Of a stretch of DNA of 64,000 nt, positions 31,957 to 43,065 are shown in pieces (the stretch's first letter is position 1; each line of letters opens with the position of its first letter). This DNA comes from an uncultured virus (IMG/VR IMGVR_UViG_3300044630_007263) (taxonomy: Duplodnaviria; Heunggongvirae; Uroviricota; Caudoviricetes): IMG/VR virus record IMGVR_UViG_3300044630_007263. One strand, 5' to 3'. Both the position numbers and the translations under genes were made by a program. The notes beneath the pieces were generated by a model. It was given only the letters and a program-made list of their open reading frames with translations. It had not been told where the DNA came from and made no database searches.

Positions 31957-34251
31957 ATGTTTAAAAGAGCTCTCATATTACTAAGTATTATTTGGTTAGC
32001 ACCAACTTTGGTAAATGCCCAAGCAACATCTGTTAGTTTGGGAGGAAGCTCTTCGACTCTATCTGTTAGTTATAATACTTGGACAAAGGTTGATCCAAAC
32101 GTAGCGGTAACTGCAAATGGAACAATTACTGGATTTAGGGTTCAGATATCTCAAGCCTATACAAGTGGTGCAAGTGGAGATCAATTAAGATCAACTGCAA
32201 CTCTTCCATCAGGTGTAAGTGTTTCAGCGTTTAACACAACAACTGGAATTTTAGTATTTAATGGTACAGCGAGCGCAGCTGATTGGCAAACCGTTTTAAG
32301 AGGAGTAGAGTTTAAATCCACTACTGCAACCTGTTATGCTCTCCAAAGACGTGTAACATTTGTTGCAGGTACAGTATTTTATAATCCTCTAACTGAGCAC
32401 TTCTATGAATACGTTTCATCAAGCGGTTCATGGACAGCGGCTAAAACTTCTGCCTCCAATCGATCGTATTTTGGTAGAGCTGGTTATCTTGCAACAATGA
32501 TGTCAGAGGCTGAGAACAATTTTATTTGGAAGTTAATGTCATCAGACGGTTGGTTTGGTGGATCCGATGAAGTCAGTGAAGTTAATACAGCAAAAGGTAC
32601 AACTGCATTTGCTTCACAAGCTGCAGTAGAACAAAAATGGCACTGGGTAACTGGGCCAGAAAAAGGAACTCAATTTTCAAATTCATCAACTGCAGTAACT
32701 GGACAATATGCCAAATGGGCAGGAGGAGAACCGAACAATGCTGGAGGCGAACACTATGCACAATTTTATTCGGCAAATAGCGGATCATGGAATGACTTAC
32801 CAAATACAAGCTTACCGGGTTATATTTGTGAATACGGAGATATGCCAGGAGATATAACTTCAAGCGTAACTATCTCAACTAGAAATATTGAAATCAGTGG
32901 AGCATCAAGTGGTTGGATATCAGGTGGAAATCTTAATGTATGTTCTGGCTCAAACAGTACAACCTTAACCTTAAACAATTACACAGGAAGTATAGTTAGA
33001 TGGGAATCTTCATTTGATAACTTCTTTACAGCTGGAACAACTATAACAAGTACTTCCTCTAGTATAACCGTAACTAACTTAACTAAAACCACTTATTATA
33101 GAGCAATTATAAATTCAACTAGTCCAACTTCATGTACTGGCCTTGCAACTTCAAGTGTTTTTTTATCGGTTAAGCCAACTAATGCAGGAACAATATTTGC
33201 AGCAAACAATTCAATTTGTTCAGGTGGACAGGCTGAACTTACCCTTTCCGGTCAACAAGGAAATATTAATAAATGGCAGAGATCCACAGATAATGTTAAC
33301 TGGACTGACATTTCAAATACTACTGCCAGTTTAAATCAAACACTTACTACAGCTGGAACTTATTATTATCGAGTTGAAGTACAAACGCCAAACTGCGGAG
33401 GCGCGGTACTGTCTACTGCAAAAACAATTACTGTAACTTCAGGAACTCCACCAGTTGGAGGATCAGTTTCATCTGCTGTGCATGCAACTTCAACTAACTC
33501 AGGTACCTTAACTCTAAGCGGTTACACTGGAACTATTGTTAAATGGCAGCGTTCAATTAATGATGGAGTAACTTGGTCAGATATTACAAATACCTCTGCT
33601 ACTAATTCATATTCAAATCAAACTGATGGAGTTTTGTATAGAGCTCAATTACAAAATGGAACTTGTGGATTTACCTTTTCAAGCGCTGGAATGATTATAG
33701 TTGCTCCATTTACACAAACTGGAAATGTGTATAATTCTGAAGGAGTTGGTATCGCAAATATTTCAATTCAGCTTTATTCAAAACCAAAATCCGATTCAAA
33801 TTATAATCTACTTAGTTCAAGTACAACTAATTCAAGTGGAGCGTATTCTTTTTCGACCCAATTGAGTGCAAATAAAAATGATTTTAGAATAGTTATTGGT
33901 TCTATTACTGTAGATAATCCAACCTCAACTGATGCTCAATCATTTACTCAAAAAGTTTTAAGTCAATCATTTAATTCAAAGGATTATTATAGAATGGATG
34001 CGAATGGAAATTCAACTCTATCAATAACGGATATTTTTCTAGTTTATTCTAAAGCAAATTCTAATCTTTCAGCTTGGCCAAACTCAACTCCAGCTTACAG
34101 AATATTTAAAGCTAGCGATTGGACTCCTATTAATAATGGAACTACTAACTTAACTTCAACCTATCCTGGTTTACAGGTGCTAACCGTCGATGCTCTTGTA
34201 TCTGGCTCAACTACTAATTTTTATCTAGTCAGAACTGGATTTCGCCAGTAA
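31957..34251 (+). CDS. Secreted C-type lectin / Ig-like repeat / dockerin-like protein
   Basis: GYLAT...WAGGEPNN...WND...YICEY; repeated KWQRS modules; MDANGNSTLSITDIF. Confidence 0.75.
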   Translation: MFKRALILLSIIWLAPTLVNAQATSVSLGGSSSTLSVSYNTWTKVDPNVAVTANGTITGFRVQISQAYTSGASGDQLRSTATLPSGVSVSAFNTTTGILVFNGTASAADWQTVLRGVEFKSTTATCYALQRRVTFVAGTVFYNPLTEHFYEYVSSSGSWTAAKTSASNRSYFGRAGYLATMMSEAENNFIWKLMSSDGWFGGSDEVSEVNTAKGTTAFASQAAVEQKWHWVTGPEKGTQFSNSSTAVTGQYAKWAGGEPNNAGGEHYAQFYSANSGSWNDLPNTSLPGYICEYGDMPGDITSSVTISTRNIEISGASSGWISGGNLNVCSGSNSTTLTLNNYTGSIVRWESSFDNFFTAGTTITSTSSSITVTNLTKTTYYRAIINSTSPTSCTGLATSSVFLSVKPTNAGTIFAANNSICSGGQAELTLSGQQGNINKWQRSTDNVNWTDISNTTASLNQTLTTAGTYYYRVEVQTPNCGGAVLSTAKTITVTSGTPPVGGSVSSAVHATSTNSGTLTLSGYTGTIVKWQRSINDGVTWSDITNTSATNSYSNQTDGVLYRAQLQNGTCGFTFSSAGMIIVAPFTQTGNVYNSEGVGIANISIQLYSKPKSDSNYNLLSSSTTNSSGAYSFSTQLSANKNDFRIVIGSITVDNPTSTDAQSFTQKVLSQSFNSKDYYRMDANGNSTLSITDIFLVYSKANSNLSAWPNSTPAYRIFKASDWTPINNGTTNLTSTYPGLQVLTVDALVSGSTTNFYLVRTGFRQ

Positions 34252-34296
34252 TCCAATTTCTATTTCATAGTATAATAGCTAAAATAATCAATCGTC

Positions 34297-34524
34297 ATGA
34301 TAGATTTAAAGGAAGTGTCAATTGCCTGGTTTAGGTCGTTTAATCCAACTCCAGAACAAAAAGAAACTGCTGACGAAAGACTTGCAATTTGTCAAGCCTG
34401 TCCTGAAGCAAAGGTTAATCAATTAAATATTCACTATTGCGGAGCATGCGGCTGTCCACTAAGTAAGAAAATATTTTCACCTAAGGGTCCAAGCGCATGT
34501 CCTCAGCAAAAATGGCCTCACTAA
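34297..34524 (+). CDS. Small Cys-rich protein
   Basis: RLAICQACP...CGACGC...CP..KW. Confidence 0.7.
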   Translation: MIDLKEVSIAWFRSFNPTPEQKETADERLAICQACPEAKVNQLNIHYCGACGCPLSKKIFSPKGPSACPQQKWPH

Positions 34525-34541
34525 GGGTATATTAATATCAA

Positions 34542-34769
34542 ATGGCAAAGTTAAACCTAAAGTTATTTAAAGAAACAATGGACGAGTTTAAAGACAAGAT
34601 CGAAAATGATCCATTCCGAGCTGGTGCAGTTTTACGTGAACAATATCCAGACGAAATATCTGAAATGTTAGAATTGCTATTTTGGGCAAAGGGTGCTAGG
34701 GAAGTAACATTTAAAGTTTCCAAAGACTCAGATGACCTACTTAAAGTTGAAATCTTAAATAGAAAATAA
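34542..34769 (+). CDS. Hypothetical protein
   Basis: ORF track. Confidence 0.6.
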   Translation: MAKLNLKLFKETMDEFKDKIENDPFRAGAVLREQYPDEISEMLELLFWAKGAREVTFKVSKDSDDLLKVEILNRK

Positions 34770-34770
34770 A

Positions 34771-35052
34771 ATGCCAGAATTTTACACAGAAGCCGAATTA
34801 GATATCGATCCATCAGAGTATTGGAGCGAATGTTCAAACAGAGAAAAAGAAGAGTTAGCCGACTTTGCAATTGAAGATGGCTATGCTCAAGCAAATGGCC
34901 CGGTCTCGCCAAATAATTTATTCGCTAGTTCAACCTATACCGAAAATGAATTGGCTAAATTGTTAATTGATATTTGGGAAAGTCGAACTTGGTTTAGTAT
35001 AAAAGAAATTGATGAATTGCGTCAGCAATTAAGAGAAAATAAAAAGATATGA
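34771..35052 (+). CDS. Hypothetical protein
   Basis: ORF track. Confidence 0.6.
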   Translation: MPEFYTEAELDIDPSEYWSECSNREKEELADFAIEDGYAQANGPVSPNNLFASSTYTENELAKLLIDIWESRTWFSIKEIDELRQQLRENKKI

Positions 35053-35501
35053 TTAGAATTTATTTAGACGATGTCCGAACTCCAGTTGGAACTGACTGGG
35101 TTGTAGTTAGAAATTATGAAGAATTTGTAAGCCTAGTTAAGGAAACAGGTTTAGCAAATATTGAAGTAATTTCTCTTGACCATGACTTAGGGGATTCTGC
35201 CATGAGTGAGTACTTCAATAATGTAAGCCCTAATTATATTTTAGATTATACTCACATTAATGAGAAAACTGGATATGACTGTGCTAAATGGTTAGTTGAC
35301 CAGTTTTATAATGAGAATCCAAAGTGGATCGACTTGGCGAGAGATGTAAAACGCGGAAAGCCTTTTCCATTTCCACTGGTCTATACTCACTCAGCAAATC
35401 CAATTGGAAGTGCCAATATTATGGGGTATATTAATAACTTCTTAATGAACGAAGCCCAACCTCAAACTTGTGTAAGGGTAATGATTGAACACACAGCATA
35501 A
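35049..35501 (+). CDS. Cyclic-phosphate-processing receiver-like domain protein
   Basis: IYLDDVR, ISLDHDLG, TGYD, HSANPIG. Confidence 0.75.
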   Translation: MIRIYLDDVRTPVGTDWVVVRNYEEFVSLVKETGLANIEVISLDHDLGDSAMSEYFNNVSPNYILDYTHINEKTGYDCAKWLVDQFYNENPKWIDLARDVKRGKPFPFPLVYTHSANPIGSANIMGYINNFLMNEAQPQTCVRVMIEHTA

Positions 35502-35676
35502 AAATTAACCAAAGTCAAAAGCTCTGAACTGACCATTAGATTGGAGGTTCTAAGTATACTAGAAGGCAGGTGAAGCCCCTGAAGGTTAATTTTTAAATTT
35601 TTTAAATAAAAGTGCTAATTGTCAAAAACTTTTTGTATATTAGCTAATATAAATAACTATACAAATAACAAAAGTG

Positions 35677-35775
35677 ATGCAAACACAAATGAACCATATT
35701 ACCGAGAATTGCTTTAGCCAAGTAGCGTATGCGAAGTGGACAGGCAATGATCGTGCAACAGGGTTCAGGAGTTGA
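35677..35775 (+). CDS. Putative attenuator leader peptide (32 aa, not in ORF track)
   Basis: MQTQMNHITENCFSQVAYAKWTGNDRATGFRS; 3' codons overlap the antiterminator strand. Confidence 0.65.
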   Translation: MQTQMNHITENCFSQVAYAKWTGNDRATGFRS

Positions 35776-35845
35776 TAGGTATTATAAAGTTAGTAGCTAT
35801 AGAAACACTGAGCCCGAACCCAAAAAGTTCGGGTTTTTTATTTTT
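35761..35845 (+). promoter_or_regulatory. Transcription attenuator (alternative antiterminator/terminator)
   Basis: GGGTTCAG (35761-68) can pair with CTGAGCCC (35808-15), which overlaps terminator AGCCCGAAC/GTTCGGGTT plus T tract. Confidence 0.7.
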
Positions 35846-35854
35846 ATAGAATAG

Positions 35855-35877
35855 GTTCTTTGACATGTTGGAAAGTA
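35855..35877 (+). promoter_or_regulatory. boxA-like antitermination element
   Basis: GTTCTTTGACATGTTGGAAAGTA, near-repeated at 38290. Confidence 0.6.
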
Positions 35878-35880
35878 TTT

Positions 35881-35953
35881 GGACAGGTAGCTCAGTAGGT
35901 AGAGCACAGGACTGAAAATCCTGGTGTCGGCGGTTCGATCCCGCCCCTGTCCA
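35881..35953 (+). tRNA. tRNA-Phe(GAA)
   Basis: Cloverleaf, loop CTGAAAA. Confidence 0.95.
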
Positions 35954-36029
35954 CGGAGTCCCGAATTAACGGGGTACCCCCACTCCCATATGGCAGCCAG
36001 TCCGTTAAGCTGGTGAAGTGGGGTTTTAT

Positions 36030-36106
36030 GGTAGTTATAGTGTTAATGGTTAGCACGTCAGATTGTGGTTCTGCTAGTATGGGTTCGAATCCCATTAATT
36101 ACCCCA
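36030..36106 (+). tRNA. tRNA-His(GTG)
   Basis: Cloverleaf, G-1:C73, encoded CCA. Confidence 0.9.
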
Positions 36107-36108
36107 TC

Positions 36109-36193
36109 GGAAGTTTGTCAGAGTGGTCTATTGTGCAGCTTTGCTAAAGCTGTGGATGTCAAAGTCCCGAAGGTTCGAATCCTTCAGCTTCCG
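36109..36193 (+). tRNA. tRNA-Ser(GCT)
   Basis: Long variable arm, G73. Confidence 0.9.
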
Positions 36194-36214
36194 CTAATTA
36201 AAAAATAAAATGAT

Positions 36215-36643
36215 ATGGAAAATATCGATAAGGAGTTTATAAAACTCAAAATACAGAAACAGTTAGAACACGAACGGGAAGAACGTGTTAAAAGAATTAA
36301 GGAATATTGGGAAACTGAAACTACTCCATTTAAGGAGCCACACGAAGTTCCAACTATTCCAAGAGCAGAACCAGAAGAATATAAAAACTTCTATGTTCCT
36401 AAACTTATACAAAGAGGAGCGATTCCAAAACGCGACCTGATCCATGGTCAAGTTTATATTGGCGACACTCGTAATGCCACCACAGCTAAATGGAATGCTG
36501 AGAAGCAGGAATTTGAATATTGGAGATATAAGTTCGGTAACACTTATATTGATACCTGCAATCATTTTGAAGATGATAATGGTTTCGCCCTCTTTGTTCC
36601 TATTAGATTAGGCGAAGAAAAAGATTGGAAAAAAGTTGATTAA
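36215..36643 (+). CDS. Hypothetical phage protein
   Basis: ORF within tRNA array. Confidence 0.7.
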   Translation: MENIDKEFIKLKIQKQLEHEREERVKRIKEYWETETTPFKEPHEVPTIPRAEPEEYKNFYVPKLIQRGAIPKRDLIHGQVYIGDTRNATTAKWNAEKQEFEYWRYKFGNTYIDTCNHFEDDNGFALFVPIRLGEEKDWKKVD

Positions 36644-36649
36644 AAATTT

Positions 36650-36679
36650 TTTAGTGTCAAATATTTGTTTTATATTTGC
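36650..36679 (+). promoter_or_regulatory. Bacteroidota housekeeping-type promoter (-7 TAnnTTTG)
   Basis: TATATTTG 36671-36678 just upstream of tRNA-Ile. Confidence 0.55.
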
Positions 36680-36690
36680 TCTAATTCAAT

Positions 36691-36764
36691 CGAACTGTAG
36701 CTCAGTTGGTTAGAGCACTCGCCTGATACGCGAGTGGTCGATGGTTCGAGTCCATCCAGTTCGA
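36691..36764 (+). tRNA. tRNA-Ile(GAT)
   Basis: Cloverleaf. Confidence 0.92.
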
Positions 36765-36861
36765 CATACTGGTTTTTGATACTGCTTTACCGTTAGGAAC
36801 GGCTATTCGCCAGAACAGAATACAAGGGAAGTATGACAGATGTGGAGAGACACATAGTTTT

Positions 36862-36933
36862 AGTCGATTAGTTCAATGGATAGAACACTTGACTACGGAT
36901 CAAGAGGTAAGGGTTCGAGTCCTTTATTGACTA
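36862..36933 (+). tRNA. tRNA-Arg(ACG)
   Basis: Cloverleaf. Confidence 0.92.
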
Positions 36934-36940
36934 CATATAA

Positions 36941-37010
36941 GTACAGGATGATCGTGGTGGTCGGATGGTCTGCAAAACTATTGGTGTTGGTTCGATTCCA
37001 ACCTTGTACT
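36941..37010 (+). tRNA. tRNA-Cys(GCA)
   Basis: Cloverleaf with short atypical D-arm; U73. Confidence 0.8.
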
Positions 37011-37018
37011 CAACATAC

Positions 37019-37092
37019 ACGTCTGTGGTGAAATGGTATCATGTCGGTCTCCAAAACCGCTGTTAGAGGTTCGAATCCTTTCAGGCGTGCCA
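37019..37092 (+). tRNA. tRNA-Trp(CCA)
   Basis: Cloverleaf, encoded CCA. Confidence 0.9.
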
Positions 37093-37095
37093 AAA

Positions 37096-37170
37096 GTCTC
37101 AGTAGCTCAGTGGTAGAGCAAGCGGCTGTTAACCGCTAGGTCGTAGGTTCGAATCCTTCCTGGGACGCCA
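37096..37170 (+). tRNA. tRNA-Asn(GTT)
   Basis: Cloverleaf, encoded CCA. Confidence 0.95.
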
Positions 37171-37174
37171 ATAT

Positions 37175-37249
37175 TGCGGGATGCGTAGAAAGTGGCTATC
37201 TCGTCAGTCTCATAAGCTGAAGTTCTGGGTTCGAGTCCCAGTCCCGCAA
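37175..37249 (+). tRNA. tRNA-Met(CAT), elongator (identity uncertain)
   Basis: CTCATAA loop; irregular D-arm. Confidence 0.75.
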
Positions 37250-37254
37250 CAAAT

Positions 37255-37328
37255 GATCTCGTAGCTCAGTTGGTTAGAGCACCTCACTTTTAATGAGGGA
37301 GTCAATGGTTCGAGTCCATTCGGGATCA
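37255..37328 (+). tRNA. tRNA-Lys(TTT)
   Basis: Cloverleaf. Confidence 0.95.
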
Positions 37329-37417
37329 CAAGGAGTTTCAATCTCAAGTGCTGGTTAGTTTAAAGACTGTCAGATGAGCCCATCAAAATTGATGACAATA
37401 CGGAAAGACGTATATAT

Positions 37418-37492
37418 GCTTTCTTAGCTCAGCTGGTTCAGAGCGCCTCGTTTACACCGAGGAGGTCACAGGTTCGAACCCTGTAGAAAGCA
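37418..37492 (+). tRNA. tRNA-Val(TAC)
   Basis: Cloverleaf. Confidence 0.95.
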
Positions 37493-37523
37493 CATAGTAT
37501 AACTAAATTAGTATAATAATTGT

Positions 37524-38195
37524 ATGAGAAACGAATTTGAAAAATACGCGATGAGTAAGCATGGCATTTCTTCATTGAATATGCACTACCATCAAAAGCA
37601 GATTGAGTCGTCAATGACTCCTTATATTTTAGAAGAGCGCGAATTACGTGCAACTCAAATGGATATTTTTTCCAGATTAATGATGGAAAGACTAATTTGG
37701 GTAGCAGGTCCAGTCAACGATCATATGTCGACTATTGTGCAAGCTCAGCTAATGTTTTTGGATTCAGTTGATGGATTAGATATTACTATGCATATTGATA
37801 GTCCAGGTGGAAGTGTTAAGAGCGGCTTATCAATGGTTGATGTAATGGATTATATTAACTGTGATATCAGAACAGTTAATACTGGAATGGCTGCATCAAT
37901 GGGATCAGTGTTGTTAGGAGCTGGCACAAAAGGAAAGCGGAGCTCACTAAAACACTCAACTACAATGTTGCATCAATCTTCAGGAGGTTTCAGTGGAAAT
38001 ATCCAAGATGCTGAAATTGATTGGAAAGAGTGGCAAAAAGTAAATGACGAGCTATTTGTTTTACTTGGTGGATATTGTGATAAAGATCCAGAACAAGTTA
38101 AAGCAGATGCAACTAGAGACTTTTGGCTTAGTGCTGAAGAAGCAAAGGCATATGGAATTATCGATGAGGTAATTTCTAAAAAGCCTAGAAAATAG
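37524..38195 (+). CDS. clpP: ClpP protease subunit
   Basis: DIFSRL, IDSPGGSV, GMAASMGS, MLHQ, RDFWLSAEEAKAYGIID. Confidence 0.95.
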   Translation: MRNEFEKYAMSKHGISSLNMHYHQKQIESSMTPYILEERELRATQMDIFSRLMMERLIWVAGPVNDHMSTIVQAQLMFLDSVDGLDITMHIDSPGGSVKSGLSMVDVMDYINCDIRTVNTGMAASMGSVLLGAGTKGKRSSLKHSTTMLHQSSGGFSGNIQDAEIDWKEWQKVNDELFVLLGGYCDKDPEQVKADATRDFWLSAEEAKAYGIIDEVISKKPRK

Positions 38196-38201
38196 AATAA
38201 T

Positions 38202-38283
38202 GCCTGTATCGCATAGCGGCAATTGCGGCTGACTGTAAATCAGCTCCCTTACGGGTTCGGTGGTTCGAGTCCATCTGCAGGCA
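38202..38283 (+). tRNA. tRNA-Tyr(GTA)
   Basis: Long variable arm. Confidence 0.93.
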
Positions 38284-38289
38284 CAAATT

Positions 38290-38312
38290 GGTCTTTGACG
38301 TATTGGAAAGTA
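38290..38312 (+). promoter_or_regulatory. boxA-like antitermination element
   Basis: GGTCTTTGACGTATTGGAAAGTA. Confidence 0.55.
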
Positions 38313-38315
38313 TAC

Positions 38316-38386
38316 TGTCCTGTGGTGTAACGGCAGCACATCTGGTTTTGGTCCAGATAATCGAGGTTCGAATCCTTGCGGGACAA
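38316..38386 (+). tRNA. tRNA-Gln(TTG)
   Basis: Cloverleaf. Confidence 0.93.
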
Positions 38387-38505
38387 CAAAGGGGCTAGTG
38401 GAAGCCCAAGAGTAGACGATGAGTCTATGTCCACAATGATGAAGAGAACCCTTAATTTATCAGAAGGTTGCTGTAAATTAAGTAGACGTCATACTTCATC
38501 TATTT

Positions 38506-38578
38506 GCCTCCTTAGCTCAGCTGGTAGAGCAACTGATTTGTAATCAGTAGGTCGTTGGTTCGATTCCGACAGGAGGCT
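38506..38578 (+). tRNA. tRNA-Thr(TGT)
   Basis: Cloverleaf. Confidence 0.95.
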
Positions 38579-38623
38579 CAATGCAATTATTAGCTTGTTT
38601 ATAGTATAATAATTACAGTAAAC

Positions 38624-38697
38624 GGGGATGTAGCTCAGTTGGCTAGAGCATCTGCCTTGCACGCAGAGGGTCGCAGGTTCGATTCCTGTCATCTCCA
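38624..38697 (+). tRNA. tRNA-Ala(TGC)
   Basis: Cloverleaf, G3:U70. Confidence 0.95.
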
Positions 38698-38700
38698 CTA

Positions 38701-38886
38701 CAAATCTTACATAAGACGGATTAGCACCGTTGAAAGAGACCTTGGCTTCGTGGGAGTAGCTACCCAATGAAGTATACATGACCCAAGGTATTATGTGATG
38801 GACCCTGCTCTTTGGTGCACTCAAAACAGGTGAACAGTAAACTATGTTCAATCAAATCCACAAGCATGGTGAGCATGCAAGATTTG
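38701..38886 (+). ncRNA. Unassigned structured RNA (~186 nt)
   Basis: Ends pair (CAAATCTT/AAGATTTG); several internal hairpins. Confidence 0.45.
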
Positions 38887-38891
38887 TCCTT

Positions 38892-38963
38892 GGCCCGTTA
38901 GTCTATCGGTTAGGACACGCCCCTTTCACGGGTGAGAGACGAGTTCGATTCTCGTACGGGCTA
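38892..38963 (+). tRNA. tRNA-Glu(TTC)
   Basis: Cloverleaf. Confidence 0.93.
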
Positions 38964-39066
38964 CGCTTTACCGAATAAGTTAGCAGCGTAAACAATTGAC
39001 GGAACGCTGTAAGCTGAGAAGCTTTGAAGAGCTGAAGTTTAGTAACCTCTTCTGAAATATCTAAAT

Positions 39067-39140
39067 GGTCTGTCGGTCCAGTTGGAGTGGACGCCTGCCT
39101 GTCACGTAGGAGATCACGGGTTCGAGTCCCGTACGGACCG
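39067..39140 (+). tRNA. tRNA-Asp(GTC)
   Basis: Cloverleaf. Confidence 0.92.
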
Positions 39141-39145
39141 CAAAT

Positions 39146-39251
39146 AGTCATAAATTCATTGGTTGAAGGGCACCTCCCCAAGGTTGAGATTAACTGCTAA
39201 TGGCACTCTTTATGGTAAAGCCTGTAATTGGTTCGAATCCAATTATGACTA
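39146..39251 (+). ncRNA. tRNA-like RNA with expanded anticodon domain
   Basis: Acceptor AGTCATA/TATGACT and T-arm ATTGG-TTCGAAT-CCAAT; no 7-nt anticodon loop. Confidence 0.65.
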
Positions 39252-39366
39252 CGCAGAAATCCAACACAACGACGACTTGCAAATAAAGCATTCTAGTAAT
39301 AGAAGCAGTCATCCAAACAAGGGTTTGGAACGTGCACTGGTTGACAGCTTGGAAAGACAGCAATTT

Positions 39367-39438
39367 GCGGATGTCGTATAATGGCCATTACTCCAGTCTT
39401 CCAAACTGGAGATGAGAGTTCGATTCTCTCCATCCGCT
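39367..39438 (+). tRNA. tRNA-Gly(TCC)
   Basis: Cloverleaf. Confidence 0.93.
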
Positions 39439-39493
39439 CAAAAATTTTTTAGGTATATTAAAAACTATTATTAACTAAGTAATACAATAAAAC

Positions 39494-39922
39494 ATGAATA
39501 TCACAAAAGCACTTAAACAGAAAAACAAATTAGTTTCAAAAACTAATGAGTACATTTCGCATGTTTCAGCGTACAACTCTATTCAAGAAGGAACTACACG
39601 TCCTTATGATGCAAAGGAAGCGTTGGAAAAAGCAATGACATCGGTTGATGAATTAGTTGCATTAAAAACAGCTATTCACAAAGCTAATGCAAAGGTTTAT
39701 GATAAAATCTTTAGATTAGCTGAACTAAAATCTTTGGTTTCTAAATTGAAAGGTTTAGACTGCAAAGAAGGAATGCACCAATCATATCGAATGGATTCTC
39801 CAGTGAAGTACACTTCACAAATCTCAATCGTTGAAAAAGATCAATTGATTGAAAAATTGGAGTCTCAAATCGAGATGTTGCAAGAGGAGCTAGAAGCTCA
39901 CAATGCAAAAACCAAAATTTAA
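39494..39922 (+). CDS. Coiled-coil protein, DIP1984-like
   Basis: MNITKALKQKNKL...LKTAIHKAN...LQEELEAHN pattern. Confidence 0.55.
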   Translation: MNITKALKQKNKLVSKTNEYISHVSAYNSIQEGTTRPYDAKEALEKAMTSVDELVALKTAIHKANAKVYDKIFRLAELKSLVSKLKGLDCKEGMHQSYRMDSPVKYTSQISIVEKDQLIEKLESQIEMLQEELEAHNAKTKI

Positions 39923-40214
39923 AATATAGGGGAGAGAAAAGAGTGAAGAGGAATCGGTAGCATATGACTGCACGTCATTTACATACTTATTCTAGCAATC
40001 CAATTGATGTTAAGACAGGGACTCTGAATTTAAAATTCAAGATTTAAGAAATTCAAAAATGGCACCTATCAACATTTAACACTCTTTTAGCGAAAATTTT
40101 TTCGGATCTCTTTTCAAACCCTTAATTTTTTTTTACTTATTTAAACCAAAATCAAATAAAGTAGGTATAATAAATAAGTAACACAAACAAGTTCTTTGAA
40201 TCTTATTGATATAT

Positions 40215-41065
40215 GTAGCCTAGCTTGCTAGGTTGCAAAACGGTCGCCTATGATCGTCAAATAAACCTGGAAACAGGTATAAAGTGGAGCTATATGACTT
40301 ATCAGCTCTGCGGTTTCGCAAGGAACTCGAGTAGGCAAGCGGGATATCAGAAGTCCTAAGTATCTGAGGGTAACACTGTAGGAGAACTGGAATGCTGACT
40401 AGGCGATGTGGGTCGTTTAGTTGAGAGGGGAACCTCAATAAGATTAACTCGTAGGATATTTGCAAGGAGTGGAATCATCCGACTCCATGATTGCGAACTC
40501 CAATTTAATGGGAGCCTTAAAGTCGAAAGACAAGTTGATGTACAGGTGGTGCTGTTATTAACCTTATCATCAGTCTACCAAGACTGCAGTTAAGAGGAAT
40601 CCGGAAAAATTGAGGTAGGGATATCTCAGAGAGTAGTTAAGTATCGACCCTGACAAAATCGGGGCTGGCCTAGTGACGAGCCACTACTTTCACAATCCAC
40701 AGAGTCAATAAACTTTGGAAATAAAAAGTTCTTTTGGTGAATAACTAAAATCCATTTTAAAACAAAGCTTAAGCGCTCGTCAGCTGCGAACGAAAGGTGC
40801 CTACCTAGTAACTGGTTGTCAGTTGCCGTAAAGGATCGCAAGTCCAATACGAGTTCTCAGAAAAATCTATAGCCTCGCAAGGGTTAACGGGATCGGCAGA
40901 TTCTGGTAGATATAATATGAGGAGAGTAGTTCAAACCCGCAGCTCAAGGAGTGGTACACCTAAAAAACCGGCACTGTTAGAGTAGAGATCAAAAGTCTCT
41001 GGATAAGTAGGGAAACAATAATCCTATGTAAAGATCTAACGTTAAAACGTATAATCTCAGCGTTT
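40215..41065 (+). ncRNA. Large structured ncRNA, probable GOLLD RNA
   Basis: ~850 nt, GC-richer, no credible ORF, multiple GCAA/GAAA-capped hairpins, inside phage tRNA array; family call from length and context. Confidence 0.65.
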
Positions 41066-41108
41066 TTCTTTTTTACTTTCCAACAATCACATCTTGAAAA
41101 TATTATAG

Positions 41109-41183
<75 letters not shown>

Positions 41184-41190
41184 AAAAAGA

Positions 41191-41213
41191 AAAAGCCGCT
41201 TAATGAGGCTTTT
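41191..41213. terminator. Bidirectional terminator
   Basis: AAAAGCC...GGCTTTT between convergent units. Confidence 0.65.
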
Positions 41214-41214
41214 G

Positions 41215-41391
41215 TTATTTACAGGCTTTTAAAAAGTCTTCGTAGTTTAAGATAATCTTTTCTCGCTTTAATTGCTTAACCATATTGGTTGCAATCTCTT
41301 CTCGATTATCTTTGTCCCTTACTTGTTTTATAATATCGACTATTCCGTCGACCATATCTTTATCTTGGGGTTTAATATCTCTAATCTTCAT
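41215..41391 (-). CDS. Small hypothetical protein (58 aa, not in ORF track)
   Basis: MKIRDIKPQDKDMVDGIVDII...; 1 nt after upstream stop. Confidence 0.6.
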   Translation of the reverse strand: MKIRDIKPQDKDMVDGIVDIIKQVRDKDNREEIATNMVKQLKREKIILNYEDFLKACK

Positions 41392-41392
41392 A

Positions 41393-42304
41393 TTATGCTA
41401 ATGATTGTGCATAGTCTAGAGCTCTAGCAAAACCCTGAGCCTTAACTCCGCTTGTAATATCTGAACCCCAACCCGCAGTTGATCTAACATAATCAGTTAC
41501 GGCAGATTCTAAATCACTAAAGTTATTTAGGTTTTTATTTGCTCGTTTAAAACTATCGATATAATAAAGAATTGCAAATTCTGCTGCAATCGCTGGATCT
41601 TCCAACTGTTCTGGATTATCAACTATATCGATTGTATCATTAGTTTCGAGTTTACCAATTTCATTGTATACTTTTTGAAGATTGATATAATTACTTTTAA
41701 ATGTAATTCCATTAAATCCGCGACCCCTATATCTTTCGCCATCGCCCGGTTCAGAATTCCCATATTTTGAGCCTCTTCCAGTTGGATCGGTTGGTCCATA
41801 TACTCTATCCCAAAACTTAGTTGGATTAGCTTTTAATGCATCAAGTTGAGAATCTGATAATTCTGAAACTCTTGATCCAAATACTTCTCTAATTCTAGAG
41901 TTGGAAGTTTTACTATAGTCAACTTCAGGTCTTAGATCTGGAGATTCCTTTGATACTACTCCAAGAATAGCCTTTCTTGCAAATTCATTTGTAATTCCAT
42001 GTCTATCCATGGCTGCTTCTAATGCGGCAATGTGTTCTTCTGGAATTTTTCCGCTATTTGATTTAAAAGCTTTAGAAGATTTTGGTTCTTCCTTTTTGTC
42101 AGTTTCTATTCCTAGTGTATCTGCAATTTTATCTACAACAGTACCAGCTAATGTCTTTACGCCGGTTAATGCAGCCTTTGCATCTGCTCCTAATTCTGGA
42201 GTCTCTGCTCCTACGCCAGTAACTAATGATTGCATCCACTCTCCCCAAGAACCAGCTTCTGAAACGTTCTTCCAACCTTTAAAATTTTTAATGTGATTTC
42301 CCAT
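41393..42304 (-). CDS. GH19-like lysozyme/chitinase-fold protein with capsid-targeting-like leader
   Basis: VSKES, GNSEPGDGERYRGRGFNGITFKSNY, IVDNPE. Confidence 0.8.
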   Translation of the reverse strand: MGNHIKNFKGWKNVSEAGSWGEWMQSLVTGVGAETPELGADAKAALTGVKTLAGTVVDKIADTLGIETDKKEEPKSSKAFKSNSGKIPEEHIAALEAAMDRHGITNEFARKAILGVVSKESPDLRPEVDYSKTSNSRIREVFGSRVSELSDSQLDALKANPTKFWDRVYGPTDPTGRGSKYGNSEPGDGERYRGRGFNGITFKSNYINLQKVYNEIGKLETNDTIDIVDNPEQLEDPAIAAEFAILYYIDSFKRANKNLNNFSDLESAVTDYVRSTAGWGSDITSGVKAQGFARALDYAQSLA

Positions 42305-42385
42305 TAATAATTGAGTTATTTCTATAAATATTTATCTTCGACTGATAACCCAGTTAATAAACTTAGTATAATAACTTAGTTAAAT

Positions 42386-42474
42386 GCCGACGTGATGAAA
42401 TAGGTAGACATGAGAGACTTAAAATCTCTTGGGCCGTAATGCCCGTGCCGGTTCGACTCCGGCCGTCGGTACCA
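42386..42474 (+). tRNA. tRNA-Leu(TAA)
   Basis: Long variable arm, encoded CCA. Confidence 0.95.
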
Positions 42475-42491
42475 AAAATAACCTCAACTAA

Positions 42492-42779
42492 ATGTCAGAG
42501 GATCTTACTAAAGAAGAGCAAGGTAAAATACTTGCTGAAATGATGAGATTAGATCAAGAAGCTGGTTTATATGACGAGCCATTTGATAATCCACTAGTCA
42601 AAGAAAAATTAAAGGATTCAAACTATTATAAATTTGCAGGTATTGCACCAGACGGATTTGTGCTAGTTCCACACGAAGTTATCGATATATTAGATGATTT
42701 TGAAGAGTGGAAAGATTTTAAATATAGAAAGCTTGAATGGATAGAAGAAAAATCTAAACAAGTTTTAAGAGTAAAATAA
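42492..42779 (+). CDS. Hypothetical protein
   Basis: ORF track. Confidence 0.6.
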   Translation: MSEDLTKEEQGKILAEMMRLDQEAGLYDEPFDNPLVKEKLKDSNYYKFAGIAPDGFVLVPHEVIDILDDFEEWKDFKYRKLEWIEEKSKQVLRVK

Positions 42780-42792
42780 AATAAAGAAAACA

Positions 42793-43065
42793 ATGATTAA
42801 CGTAATTTATTTTTCAGCACCATGGTGTGGACCGTGCAGAACGTTTGGACCAGTTATGGAAAGGGTTGCTGAACATTTTAGTGAAAACTCTTTAGTTGAA
42901 ATTACTAAAGTAAATGCAGATGAAGATCCAGATACAGCCGCTCTGCATGGAATTAGATCAATTCCAGCATTAGTCTATTTAAAGGATAGCGAAACTGCAT
43001 ACCAGTCAGTTGGCGTAAAAGCGCAAGCTGATATTATTGAAAAAATTAATGAGCTACTAGCTTAG
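42793..43065 (+). CDS. trxA: Thioredoxin
   Basis: FSAPWCGPC, IRSIP. Confidence 0.92.
   Translation: MINVIYFSAPWCGPCRTFGPVMERVAEHFSENSLVEITKVNADEDPDTAALHGIRSIPALVYLKDSETAYQSVGVKAQADIIEKINELLA

What the first reader, a model, noticed from the sequence alone, without database searches (positions are those of the whole stretch)
35677..35880. Leader-peptide attenuator that may sense the whole tRNA pool and switch on the phage tRNA array
Seen: an unannotated 32-codon ORF (MQTQMNHITENCFSQVAYAKWTGNDRATGFRS) lies directly before the first tRNA. It uses 18 different amino acids and lacks only Leu and Pro. The array at 35881-41183 encodes tRNAs for exactly those 18; the Leu and Pro tRNAs lie elsewhere (42386, 52441, 53084). 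Both Ser codons are AGY and one Arg codon is CGT, matching the in-array Ser(GCT) and Arg(ACG). The last codons (GGGTTCAG) are complementary to CTGAGCCC, which overlaps the 5' arm of an intrinsic terminator (35811-35845). Known: this is the geometry of trp/his-type attenuation, where complete translation gives termination and stalling gives read-through, but classical leaders repeat one amino acid. Inference: this is a 'one-of-everything' sensor that expresses phage tRNAs when any host tRNA is depleted, e.g. by anticodon-nuclease defence or starvation. Caveats: a 32-mer can be diverse by chance, and internal promoter-like motifs (~36671, ~37509, ~38603) may bypass the attenuator.
Basis: partly seen in the sequence, partly recalled or inferred. 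Interest (0 to 1): 0.93.

Follow-up and report, generated by a model that had tools for sequence, protein, structure and literature searches.

The report
Codon-census attenuator gating phage tRNA genes
A tiny test gene written in the codons that the phage's own tRNAs read sits before a switchable transcription stop and a borrowed ribosomal-RNA anti-stop signal, so the phage probably makes more tRNA when ribosomes read those codons slowly.

Summary
A 32-codon ORF (35677-35775, 18 amino-acid types, no Leu or Pro) lies 34 nt before a strong terminator (35810-35845) and tRNA-Phe (35881). Its last codons pair with the terminator's 5' arm.

Two new points:
- The conserved motif between terminator and tRNA is not a promoter. 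It is the Bacteroidota rRNA-operon boxA, which acts in RNA and so needs transcription from upstream.
- The layout promoter, short ORF, terminator, boxA, tRNAs recurs in many uncultured phage contigs. I analysed 76 sites, which gave 22 unrelated leader clusters.

Across those 22 clusters:
- 161 of 163 amino-acid types with a tRNA downstream occur in the cluster's own leader. The null is 79%, p<=1e-5. Other reading frames give 109-123 of 163.
- Codon choice fits the anticodons (172/184, p<=2e-4).
- Each leader's 3' end pairs best with its own terminator arm (p<=1e-5).

Best reading (about 0.77): a ribosome-mediated attenuator that ties transcription into the tRNA block to decoding speed at the cognate codons.

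Caveats:
- There is no experimental evidence.
- The closest relatives add a Leu codon to the leader, so the exact 18=18 match is partly luck.
- Internal promoter-like motifs may bypass the switch.

I found no published account. This scan noted the same design earlier on other genomes.

The parts
35636..35643 (+). Promoter-like -7 box TATATTAG, 41 nt before the ATG. It has one mismatch to the Bacteroidota TAnnTTTG consensus, which I recall from memory.
   Evidence: 10 of 22 cluster representatives have an exact TAnnTTTG 25-82 nt before the leader ATG; the window family has this 1-mismatch box. The region from about 35620 is 92-93% conserved in 5 relatives.
35677..35775 (+). Leader ORF, 32 codons plus TGA, with 18 amino-acid types
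   Evidence: It is intact in 6 of 6 aligned sequences. It belongs to one of 22 unrelated leader clusters with the same layout.
35690..35695 (+). Region 1: UGAACC, paired with GGUUCA (35762-35767) in the minimum-energy fold. Putative anti-antiterminator.
   Evidence: MFE -52.0 kcal/mol, z -5.3, 0 of 200 shuffles as stable. Conservation of this pairing was not tested.
35760..35769 (+). Region 2: AGGGTTCAGG, the last codons of the ORF and the 5' strand of the antiterminator
   Evidence: the duplex with the terminator 5' arm is -14.9 kcal/mol against -9.2 for shuffles (1 of 200 as good). It lies 6-15 nt before the ORF end.
35808..35845 (+). Region 3/4: intrinsic terminator. 5' arm GAGCCCGAAC 35810-35819, loop, 3' arm 35827-35836, T tract to 35845. 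CT 35808-35809 extends the antiterminator.
   Evidence: 10 pairs, 5 G-C, loop 7, T tail.
35855..35871 (+). rrn-type boxA, GTTCTTTGACATGTTGG
   Evidence: It matches 10 of 11 positions of the published gamma-proteobacterial consensus GYTCTTTAANA (PMC5725501, passages). The near-identical 17-mer lies in the 16S-23S spacer in 20 of 20 Bacteroidota loci examined. It precedes tRNAs at a fixed distance in 21 of 80 viral loci.
35881..41183 (+). tRNA block: 18 ARAGORN tRNAs and one Rfam-only CAT tRNA, interrupted by three ORFs and two structured RNAs
38290..38310 (+). Second boxA-like copy (GGTCTTTGACGTATTGGAAAG), 5 nt before tRNA-Gln
39341..39356 (+). Third, partial copy (TTGACAGCTTGGAAAG), 10 nt before tRNA-Gly

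Best explanation
This is a ribosome-mediated (leader-peptide) transcription attenuator at the head of a phage tRNA operon.

Proposed mechanism:
1. Transcription starts about 25-30 nt before the ATG at 35677.
2. If a ribosome translates the 32 codons quickly and reaches the stop, it covers region 2 (35760-35769). The terminator 35810-35845 then forms and the transcript ends before the tRNAs.
3. If the ribosome stalls at any earlier codon because the matching charged tRNA is scarce, region 2 is free. It pairs with the terminator's 5' arm and RNA polymerase reads through.
4. Polymerase then transcribes boxA (35855-35871). BoxA probably recruits the host NusB/NusE antitermination complex, so the untranslated tRNA block is transcribed processively.
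5. The leader is written in codons read by the tRNAs that follow. The loop would therefore be a feedback on the supply of exactly those tRNAs.

Shown here: the sequence elements, their conservation, the match between codons and tRNAs, and the complementarity.
Inferred: translation of the ORF, termination, stalling-dependent read-through, and Nus binding.
For: 1. Anatomy in the window.

2. boxA:
- The motif after the terminator matches the boxA consensus at 10 of 11 positions.
- Its 17-mer relative sits in the rrn 16S-23S spacer in 20 of 20 Bacteroidota loci examined. These are 20 of the 80 fetched from at least 122 hits.
- boxA acts in RNA, so it needs transcription from upstream. Only 9 nt separate the T tract from it.

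3. Recurrence:
- Of 164 distinct boxA sites in 247 sources, 76 have a terminator within 70 nt upstream. One of the four source scans required a T run before boxA.
- 75 of those 76 have an ATG ORF of 15-60 aa ending within 100 nt of the stem.
- 74 of 76 have an ORF of 20 aa or more, against 32 of 76 on the reverse strand.
- The gap from stop codon to stem has a median of 25 nt, IQR 22-30.

4. Tracking, on 22 clusters drawn from 55 usable loci. 20 of 75 were dropped for short flank, fewer than 2 tRNAs, or a leader under 20 aa.
- 161 of 163 non-Met amino-acid types with a tRNA within 2.6 kb occur in their own leader.
- The permutation null is 0.791 +/- 0.027, and 0 of 100,000 permutations reach the observed value.
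- The same-locus protein-window null is 120.2 +/- 4.8, maximum 136 in 2,000 draws.
- Other frames and the reverse strand give 109-123 of 163.
- The two misses lie behind a second attenuator whose leader holds them.
- The fraction of leader residues with a cognate tRNA is 0.519 against 0.382 +/- 0.020, p<=1e-5.

5. Codon level: 172 of 184 anticodons can read a leader codon by strict wobble. Synonymous resampling gives 154.6 +/- 3.6, maximum 168 in 5,000 draws.

6. Antiterminator:
- Mean z is -2.97, and 15 of 22 clusters are matched by at most 5 of 200 shuffles.
- The best partner lies at or within about 40 nt of the ORF end in 21 of 22 clusters.
- Own terminator arm gives -13.1 kcal/mol against -8.0 for other clusters' arms. 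It ranks first in 12 of 22, permutation p<=1e-5.
- Region 2 changes together with the terminator stem between and within clusters.

7. Weak hint: contigs from two RNA libraries bridge the terminator. These are X15 at 35761-36195 and X16 at 35613-35896.
Against: - There is no experimental evidence for translation, termination or read-through. The RNA-library contigs may derive from DNA and cannot show transcripts.
- In the 5 nearest relatives the leader has a Leu TTA codon. In G001, the one whose array I read to its end, the boxA-led block has no Leu tRNA. The nearest, Leu(taa), lies 1.2 kb beyond tRNA-Met, and in the window that position is behind a minus-strand ORF.
- On average only about half of leader residues have a cognate tRNA within 2.6 kb.
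- Internal promoter-like motifs could bypass the switch. TATATTTG lies at 36671, 20 nt before tRNA-Ile. TAGTATAATAA lies at 37509 and 38602. The attenuator may therefore gate only Phe-His-Ser directly.
- The leader's own promoter is imperfect.
- The 1:2 pairing is only 6 bp and I did not test its conservation.
- In 7 of 22 clusters the antiterminator is not clearly better than shuffles.
- Loci were found through exact boxA or T-run patterns, so sampling is biased to Bacteroidota-type phages. The 22 clusters may not be fully independent.
Confidence: 0.77

Rival explanations
1. The element is a general translation-capacity sensor and is not codon-specific. The same RNA switch reports whether any ribosome loads on and keeps up with RNA polymerase, for example after host shut-off or ribosome shortage. 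The codon content of the leader would then be secondary.
For: The geometry alone fits any attenuator that depends on ribosome position. The large 'diverse' leaders, like the window's, cannot be told apart from a generic ORF on composition alone.
Against: Leader content tracks the particular tRNAs downstream. This includes small specialised arrays, and it holds at codon level and only in frame. A generic sensor gives no reason for that.
Confidence: 0.12
2. The ORF encodes a functional micropeptide, or the promoter-to-terminator unit is a small RNA gene, and either acts independently of the tRNAs. The terminator would simply end that unit.
For: The unit has its own promoter-like box and strong terminator, and it folds stably (z -5.3). 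Attenuated leader RNAs and leader peptides are reported to act in trans in Sinorhizobium (abstracts of PMC6614838 and PMC7298713, seen in the listings).
Against: Peptide sequence is not conserved between the 22 clusters (under 40% identity by construction), yet composition follows the downstream tRNAs. boxA directly after the terminator needs read-through transcription. A trans role could exist in addition.
Confidence: 0.06
3. The ORF is a chance reading frame. The terminator ends or insulates the upstream operon, and the tRNAs are expressed from other promoters.
For: 18 types in 32 aa occurs in about 2-3% of comparable stretches. The array boundary at 41183 was chosen after the fact. Internal promoter-like motifs exist.
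Against: The ORF recurs at 74 of 76 sites against 32 of 76 on the reverse strand. Tracking is frame-specific, and the antiterminator is specific to each leader's own terminator. Only 8 of 12,571 windows match the array set.
Confidence: 0.04

Closest known systems
Leader-peptide transcription attenuators of amino-acid operons (trpL, hisL, pheL; the multivalent thr and ilv leaders) and of the pheST synthetase operon. Named from memory; pheL and trpL attenuation are also described in abstracts listed.
   Same: Promoter, short translated ORF, mutually exclusive antiterminator and terminator with the antiterminator strand at the ORF end, and leader codons that name the limiting species.
   Different: The regulated genes are tRNAs, not enzymes. 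The leader samples up to 18-20 different amino acids once or twice each, instead of runs of one. It is followed by a boxA. It is phage-borne and in Bacteroidota-type phages. No Rfam leader family matches.
T-box riboswitches
   Same: They couple tRNA status to transcription read-through through an antiterminator/terminator choice.
   Different: A T-box binds uncharged tRNA directly, has no ORF, and controls synthetase and amino-acid genes. No T-box hit was found in 34500-42600 at E<=1.
rrn antitermination (boxA with NusB/NusE/NusA/NusG/SuhB) and lambda nut sites
   Same: A boxA of the host's rrn type at the start of an untranslated RNA operon.
   Different: Here boxA is placed behind a regulated terminator and in front of phage tRNAs. 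No boxB or N-type partner was sought. Nus binding is untested.

Membership tests
Ribosome-mediated leader-peptide attenuator | A short ORF with a start codon in the 5' leader, kept open in relatives | tested here: met
   6 of 6 open; 75 of 76 sites; 74 of 76 against 32 of 76 on the reverse strand.
Ribosome-mediated leader-peptide attenuator | An intrinsic terminator between the ORF and the regulated genes | tested here: met
   The stop-to-stem gap is 34 nt here, and the family median is 25 nt.
Ribosome-mediated leader-peptide attenuator | An antiterminator that competes for the terminator's 5' arm, with its 5' strand where a terminating ribosome masks it | tested here: met
   window family -14.9 against -9.2 kcal/mol; own against foreign arm p<=1e-5; the partner lies at or within about 40 nt of the ORF end in 21 of 22 clusters.
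Ribosome-mediated leader-peptide attenuator | Leader codons correspond to the species whose supply is regulated | tested here: met
   In the window all 18 array amino acids occur in the leader.
Ribosome-mediated leader-peptide attenuator | A 1:2 pairing that allows termination when the leader is not translated | tested here: inconclusive
   A 6-bp pair, 35690-35695 with 35762-35767, appears in the MFE. Its conservation was not examined.
Ribosome-mediated leader-peptide attenuator | Read-through rises when ribosomes stall in the leader | not testable with these tools
   This needs reporters, Term-seq or Ribo-seq. One search gives only contigs that bridge the terminator.
rrn-type boxA (Nus-factor site) | Sequence fits the boxA consensus and the host phylum's own rrn boxA | tested here: met
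   10 of 11 positions match GYTCTTTAANA. The 17-mer lies in the 16S-23S spacer, 26-198 nt before 23S, in 20 of 20 loci examined.
rrn-type boxA (Nus-factor site) | Binds NusB/NusE and makes polymerase resistant to termination | not testable with these tools
Rfam leader families and T-box | A match to a curated covariance model | tested here: not met
   cmscan of 34500-42600 at E<=1 lists no leader or T-box family.

The most novel reading that the evidence does not exclude
Phage tRNA operons carry a 'codon census'. The supply of each phage tRNA is measured by ribosome transit over its own codon in a leader ORF. A shortfall in any one tRNA opens transcription of the whole block, which boxA then makes processive. 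Such a shortfall could come from a codon-usage mismatch with the host, from starvation, or from host anticodon nucleases that cut tRNAs as anti-phage defence. That would be a homeostat and counter-defence sensor for tRNA itself, a class of tRNA-gene regulation I could not find described for any organism. The gene just upstream (35049-35501) has a cyclic-phosphate-processing receiver domain. As I recall from memory, that family has been linked to RNA repair, which would fit a tRNA-damage theme.
Probability: 0.35. Interest if true: 0.95.

Novelty: new variant of a known kind. Interest (0 to 1): 0.87.

Why it matters
It is not known how phages control their large tRNA arrays, or why they carry them. 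A leader ORF that reads the same codons as the downstream tRNAs would make tRNA supply self-adjusting. It would be the first attenuation control of tRNA genes that I could find. Four full-text searches (listings with titles and the starts of abstracts only) returned no such account.

It also shows phages copying the host rRNA boxA to drive untranslated RNA operons.

The design is compact and predictive, because leader content forecasts array content. It is therefore directly testable, and useful both for annotating phage regulatory regions and for building codon-specific translation sensors.

Tried and rejected
1. Motif as promoter. I first read the motif between terminator and tRNA as a promoter. 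The sigma-70 scan gave nothing there and the spacing did not fit. I rejected that reading once the motif proved to be the rrn spacer boxA.

2. Neighbour gene as anchor. In only 6 of 80 loci (L004-L008, L041) is it followed by the Phe-led array; another 11 show one tRNA downstream. blastn of the intergenic region finds only the 5 close relatives and a short L041 hit.

3. Cultured model phage.
- The Flavobacterium phage immuto region has 4 tRNAs, no such attenuator and only a boxA-like GTTCTTTGAAA.
- blastn of the tRNA-Phe end returned only tRNA-Phe matches.
- blastn of the terminator-boxA stretch returned 10 weak hits, none from Bacteroidota phages.

4. Other tRNAs of the window. Leu 42386, Pro 52441, Arg 52734 and Leu 53084 have no attenuator or boxA.

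5. RNA evidence. All four runs laid are contigs. No starts or ends were listed and cover is uneven, so expression level and 3' ends cannot be read.

6. Box-level test. Ser/Arg/Leu codon box against tRNA box gave 32 of 47 matches without a proper null. The anticodon-coverage test replaced it.

7. Technical points. One search reported that the window's own assembly is not held. One search timed out and was rerun.

Full report
**The observation**

Bases 35677-35775 hold an ATG ORF of 32 codons, MQTQMNHITENCFSQVAYAKWTGNDRATGFRS. It uses 18 amino-acid types and lacks only Leu and Pro.

ARAGORN finds 24 tRNAs in the window. The 18 between 35881 and 41183 cover exactly those 18 amino acids. Leu (42386, 53084) and Pro (52441) lie elsewhere. 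Rfam adds a CAT-anticodon tRNA at 37175-37249.

The best terminator-like site in 34000-43000 is 35810-35836, followed by a T tract. GGGTTCAG at the ORF's end can pair with CTGAGCCC, which overlaps the terminator's 5' arm.

On composition alone the ORF is unusual but not extreme:
- 18 or more types occur in 2 of 93 short ORFs and in 293 of 11,674 32-aa protein windows of this window.
- Only 8 of 12,571 such windows hold all 17 non-Met array amino acids.

The stretch 35650-35850 folds far better than shuffles (-52.0 kcal/mol, z -5.3, 0 of 200). In that fold the terminator is formed and UGAACC (35690-35695) pairs with GGUUCA (35762-35767).

**Close relatives**

Five IMG/VR contigs keep 35604-35880 at 92-93% identity. 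The upstream protein gene is 89-91% identical at the protein level. The ORF is open in 6 of 6 sequences.

All five relatives read ...NDRDLGF... and so hold a Leu codon (TTA), giving 19 types. One of them, G001, has the same tRNA order. Its only nearby Leu tRNA lies 1.2 kb past tRNA-Met. In the window that position is behind a minus-strand ORF.

The exact match of 18 to 18 is therefore not conserved. What holds is that every array amino acid is in the leader.

**The motif between terminator and tRNA is boxA**

GTTCTTTGACATGTTGG (35855-35871) recurs before tRNA-Gln and, in part, before tRNA-Gly.
- In IMG/VR, TTCTTTGACATNTTGG gave at least 115 hits. In 21 of the 80 fetched, a tRNA of many different kinds starts about 22-27 nt after the motif start, with three cases at 56-58 nt.
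- The exact 17-mer with A gave at least 117 viral hits, and 21 of the 80 fetched have a tRNA within 70 nt.
- The same 17-mer gave at least 122 hits in prokaryote genomes, mostly Bacteroidota.
- In 20 of 20 of those genome loci examined with Rfam, it lies in the 16S-23S spacer, after the spacer tRNAs and 26-198 nt before 23S.
- It fits the published boxA consensus GYTCTTTAANA at 10 of 11 positions (PMC5725501, passages read).

boxA works in the nascent RNA, so it must be transcribed from upstream. Here that means through the terminator.

**A family of such leaders**

I pooled four groups of loci: the close relatives, L041, and the loci of three pattern scans. The last scan required a T run before boxA.

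This gave 164 distinct boxA sites, of which 76 have a terminator within 70 nt upstream. Of those, 75 have an ATG ORF of 15-60 aa ending just before the stem.

An ORF of 20 aa or more is present at 74 of 76 sites, against 32 of 76 on the reverse strand. The stop codon lies a median of 25 nt before the stem.

The leaders fall into 22 clusters with under 40% identity between them. These come from 55 usable loci. I dropped 20 of 75 for short flanks, fewer than two tRNAs, or leaders under 20 aa.

**Leader content tracks the tRNAs that follow**

Examples:

| Leader | Downstream tRNAs |
|---|---|
| MKKMLDILVVLSVAVLLWDDAAEEKLHEVG | Asp, Glu, Val, Leu, Ala, Trp |
| MMAISKHSKFSFWFSSHKTKFRFIMPYSNHMK | Phe, Lys, Trp |
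| MKTMNTNTNLDTPTTPNGDGGTICVSSEASGW | Pro, Asn, Asp, Gly, Thr |

Over the 22 clusters:
- 161 of 163 non-Met amino-acid types with a tRNA within 2.6 kb occur in their own leader.
- Pairing leaders with other clusters' arrays gives 0.791 +/- 0.027, and 0 of 100,000 permutations reach the observed value.
- Same-length windows of proteins from the same locus give 120.2 +/- 4.8, maximum 136 in 2,000 draws.
- The other two frames give 109 and 118, and the reverse strand 114-123.
- The two misses (Glu and Leu in L482) lie behind a second attenuator in that locus, whose leader contains them.
- At codon level, 172 of 184 anticodons can read at least one leader codon by strict wobble. Synonymous resampling gives 154.6 +/- 3.6, maximum 168 in 5,000 draws.
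- Only about half of all leader residues have a cognate tRNA within 2.6 kb (0.519 against a null of 0.382). Leaders therefore contain more than the array, or the arrays run on further.

**The switch**

I compared the best duplex between each leader (ORF plus spacer) and its terminator's 5' arm with shuffles.
- Mean z is -2.97. In 15 of 22 clusters at most 5 of 200 shuffles do as well; 7 of 22 are not clearly better.
- The best partner lies at or within about 40 nt of the ORF end in 21 of 22 clusters.
- The 3' end of each leader prefers its own terminator arm: -13.1 against -8.0 kcal/mol, first rank in 12 of 22, p<=1e-5.
- Region 2 resembles the terminator's 3' arm and changes with it between and within clusters.
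- In the window, region 2 is AGGGTTCAGG (35760-35769), with -14.9 kcal/mol against -9.2 for shuffles.

**Mechanism (inferred)**

A ribosome that reaches the stop codon covers region 2, so the terminator forms. A ribosome stalled earlier leaves region 2 free to pair with region 3. Polymerase then reads on into boxA and the tRNAs.

Contigs from two RNA libraries bridge the terminator. This is weak evidence: such libraries can hold DNA, and contigs cannot show transcripts.

**Caveats for this window**
- One exact Bacteroidota-type -7 box, TATATTTG, lies 20 nt before tRNA-Ile.
- A repeated TAGTATAATAA motif lies at 37509 and 38602, and 8 of its 9 copies in the window are on the + strand.
- The leader's own -7 box has one mismatch. 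The TAnnTTTG consensus is recalled from memory, not from a call.

**Comparison with what is known**

The design works like the leader-peptide attenuators of amino-acid operons and meets their structural criteria. It matches no Rfam leader or T-box model. Its targets are tRNA genes, its leader is multivalent, and it is coupled to boxA.

Four full-text searches (I saw the listings with titles and the starts of abstracts) showed no report of attenuation control of tRNA genes.

**Earlier notes of this scan**

After I had reached this reading, one search showed that the scan had already noted the same design on at least seven other genomes. One similar case there was judged a chance frame. These are unchecked notes, not independent support.

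**Verdict**

This is a new variant of a known kind and of high interest. It awaits experiment.

Noticed in passing
window 40629-41063 (+): A full-length GOLLD RNA (Rfam RF02032, 242.8 bits, E 1.2e-68) lies directly before tRNA-Met 41109, inside the tRNA block.
   Followed up: no
window 38794-38856 (+): A freshwater-1 RNA (RF02979, 72.4 bits, gathering score 72) lies between tRNA-Ala and tRNA-Glu.
   Followed up: no
window 37175-37249 (+): A tRNA with a CAT anticodon is found by Rfam (42.8 bits) but missed by ARAGORN in the window. ARAGORN calls tRNA-Met at the same place in relative L005.
   Followed up: partly
window 35049-35501 (+): The gene just upstream of the attenuator has a cyclic-phosphate-processing receiver domain (PF20274 cREC_REC, E 1.5e-21). 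At least 218 viral relatives exist, most of them not next to tRNAs.
   Followed up: partly
window 37524-38195 (+): A ClpP-family protease gene (PF00574, E 2.2e-56) sits inside the tRNA block, preceded by the TAGTATAATAA motif.
   Followed up: no
window 22575, 34268, 37509, 38602, 42364, 46239, 49272, 54226 (+): The repeated motif TAGTATAATA(A/G/T) has 8 of its 9 copies on the + strand. Several lie just before ORFs or tRNAs. It is a candidate phage promoter class.
   Followed up: partly
L199, L205, L210, L212 and others; L209, L216, L233 and others: In 59 of 80 viral loci the exact boxA 17-mer precedes conserved sequence that is not tRNA. Several recurring families appear, possibly unannotated phage non-coding RNAs driven by the same antitermination signal.
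   Followed up: no
L482 2508 and 4067: One contig carries two attenuators in series. Each leader matches its own sub-array; the second leader holds T, L, E and D before Thr, Leu, Glu, Asp and Leu tRNAs.
   Followed up: partly
L503, about 2170 nt after boxA: ARAGORN calls a tRNA with anticodon TTA, which would read the stop codon TAA, inside a phage tRNA array. It is a possible suppressor tRNA.
   Followed up: no
L560 6330-6350 (Flavobacterium phage immuto): A boxA-like GTTCTTTGAAA follows tRNA-Cys in a cultured phage that lacks the leader-terminator unit.
   Followed up: partly
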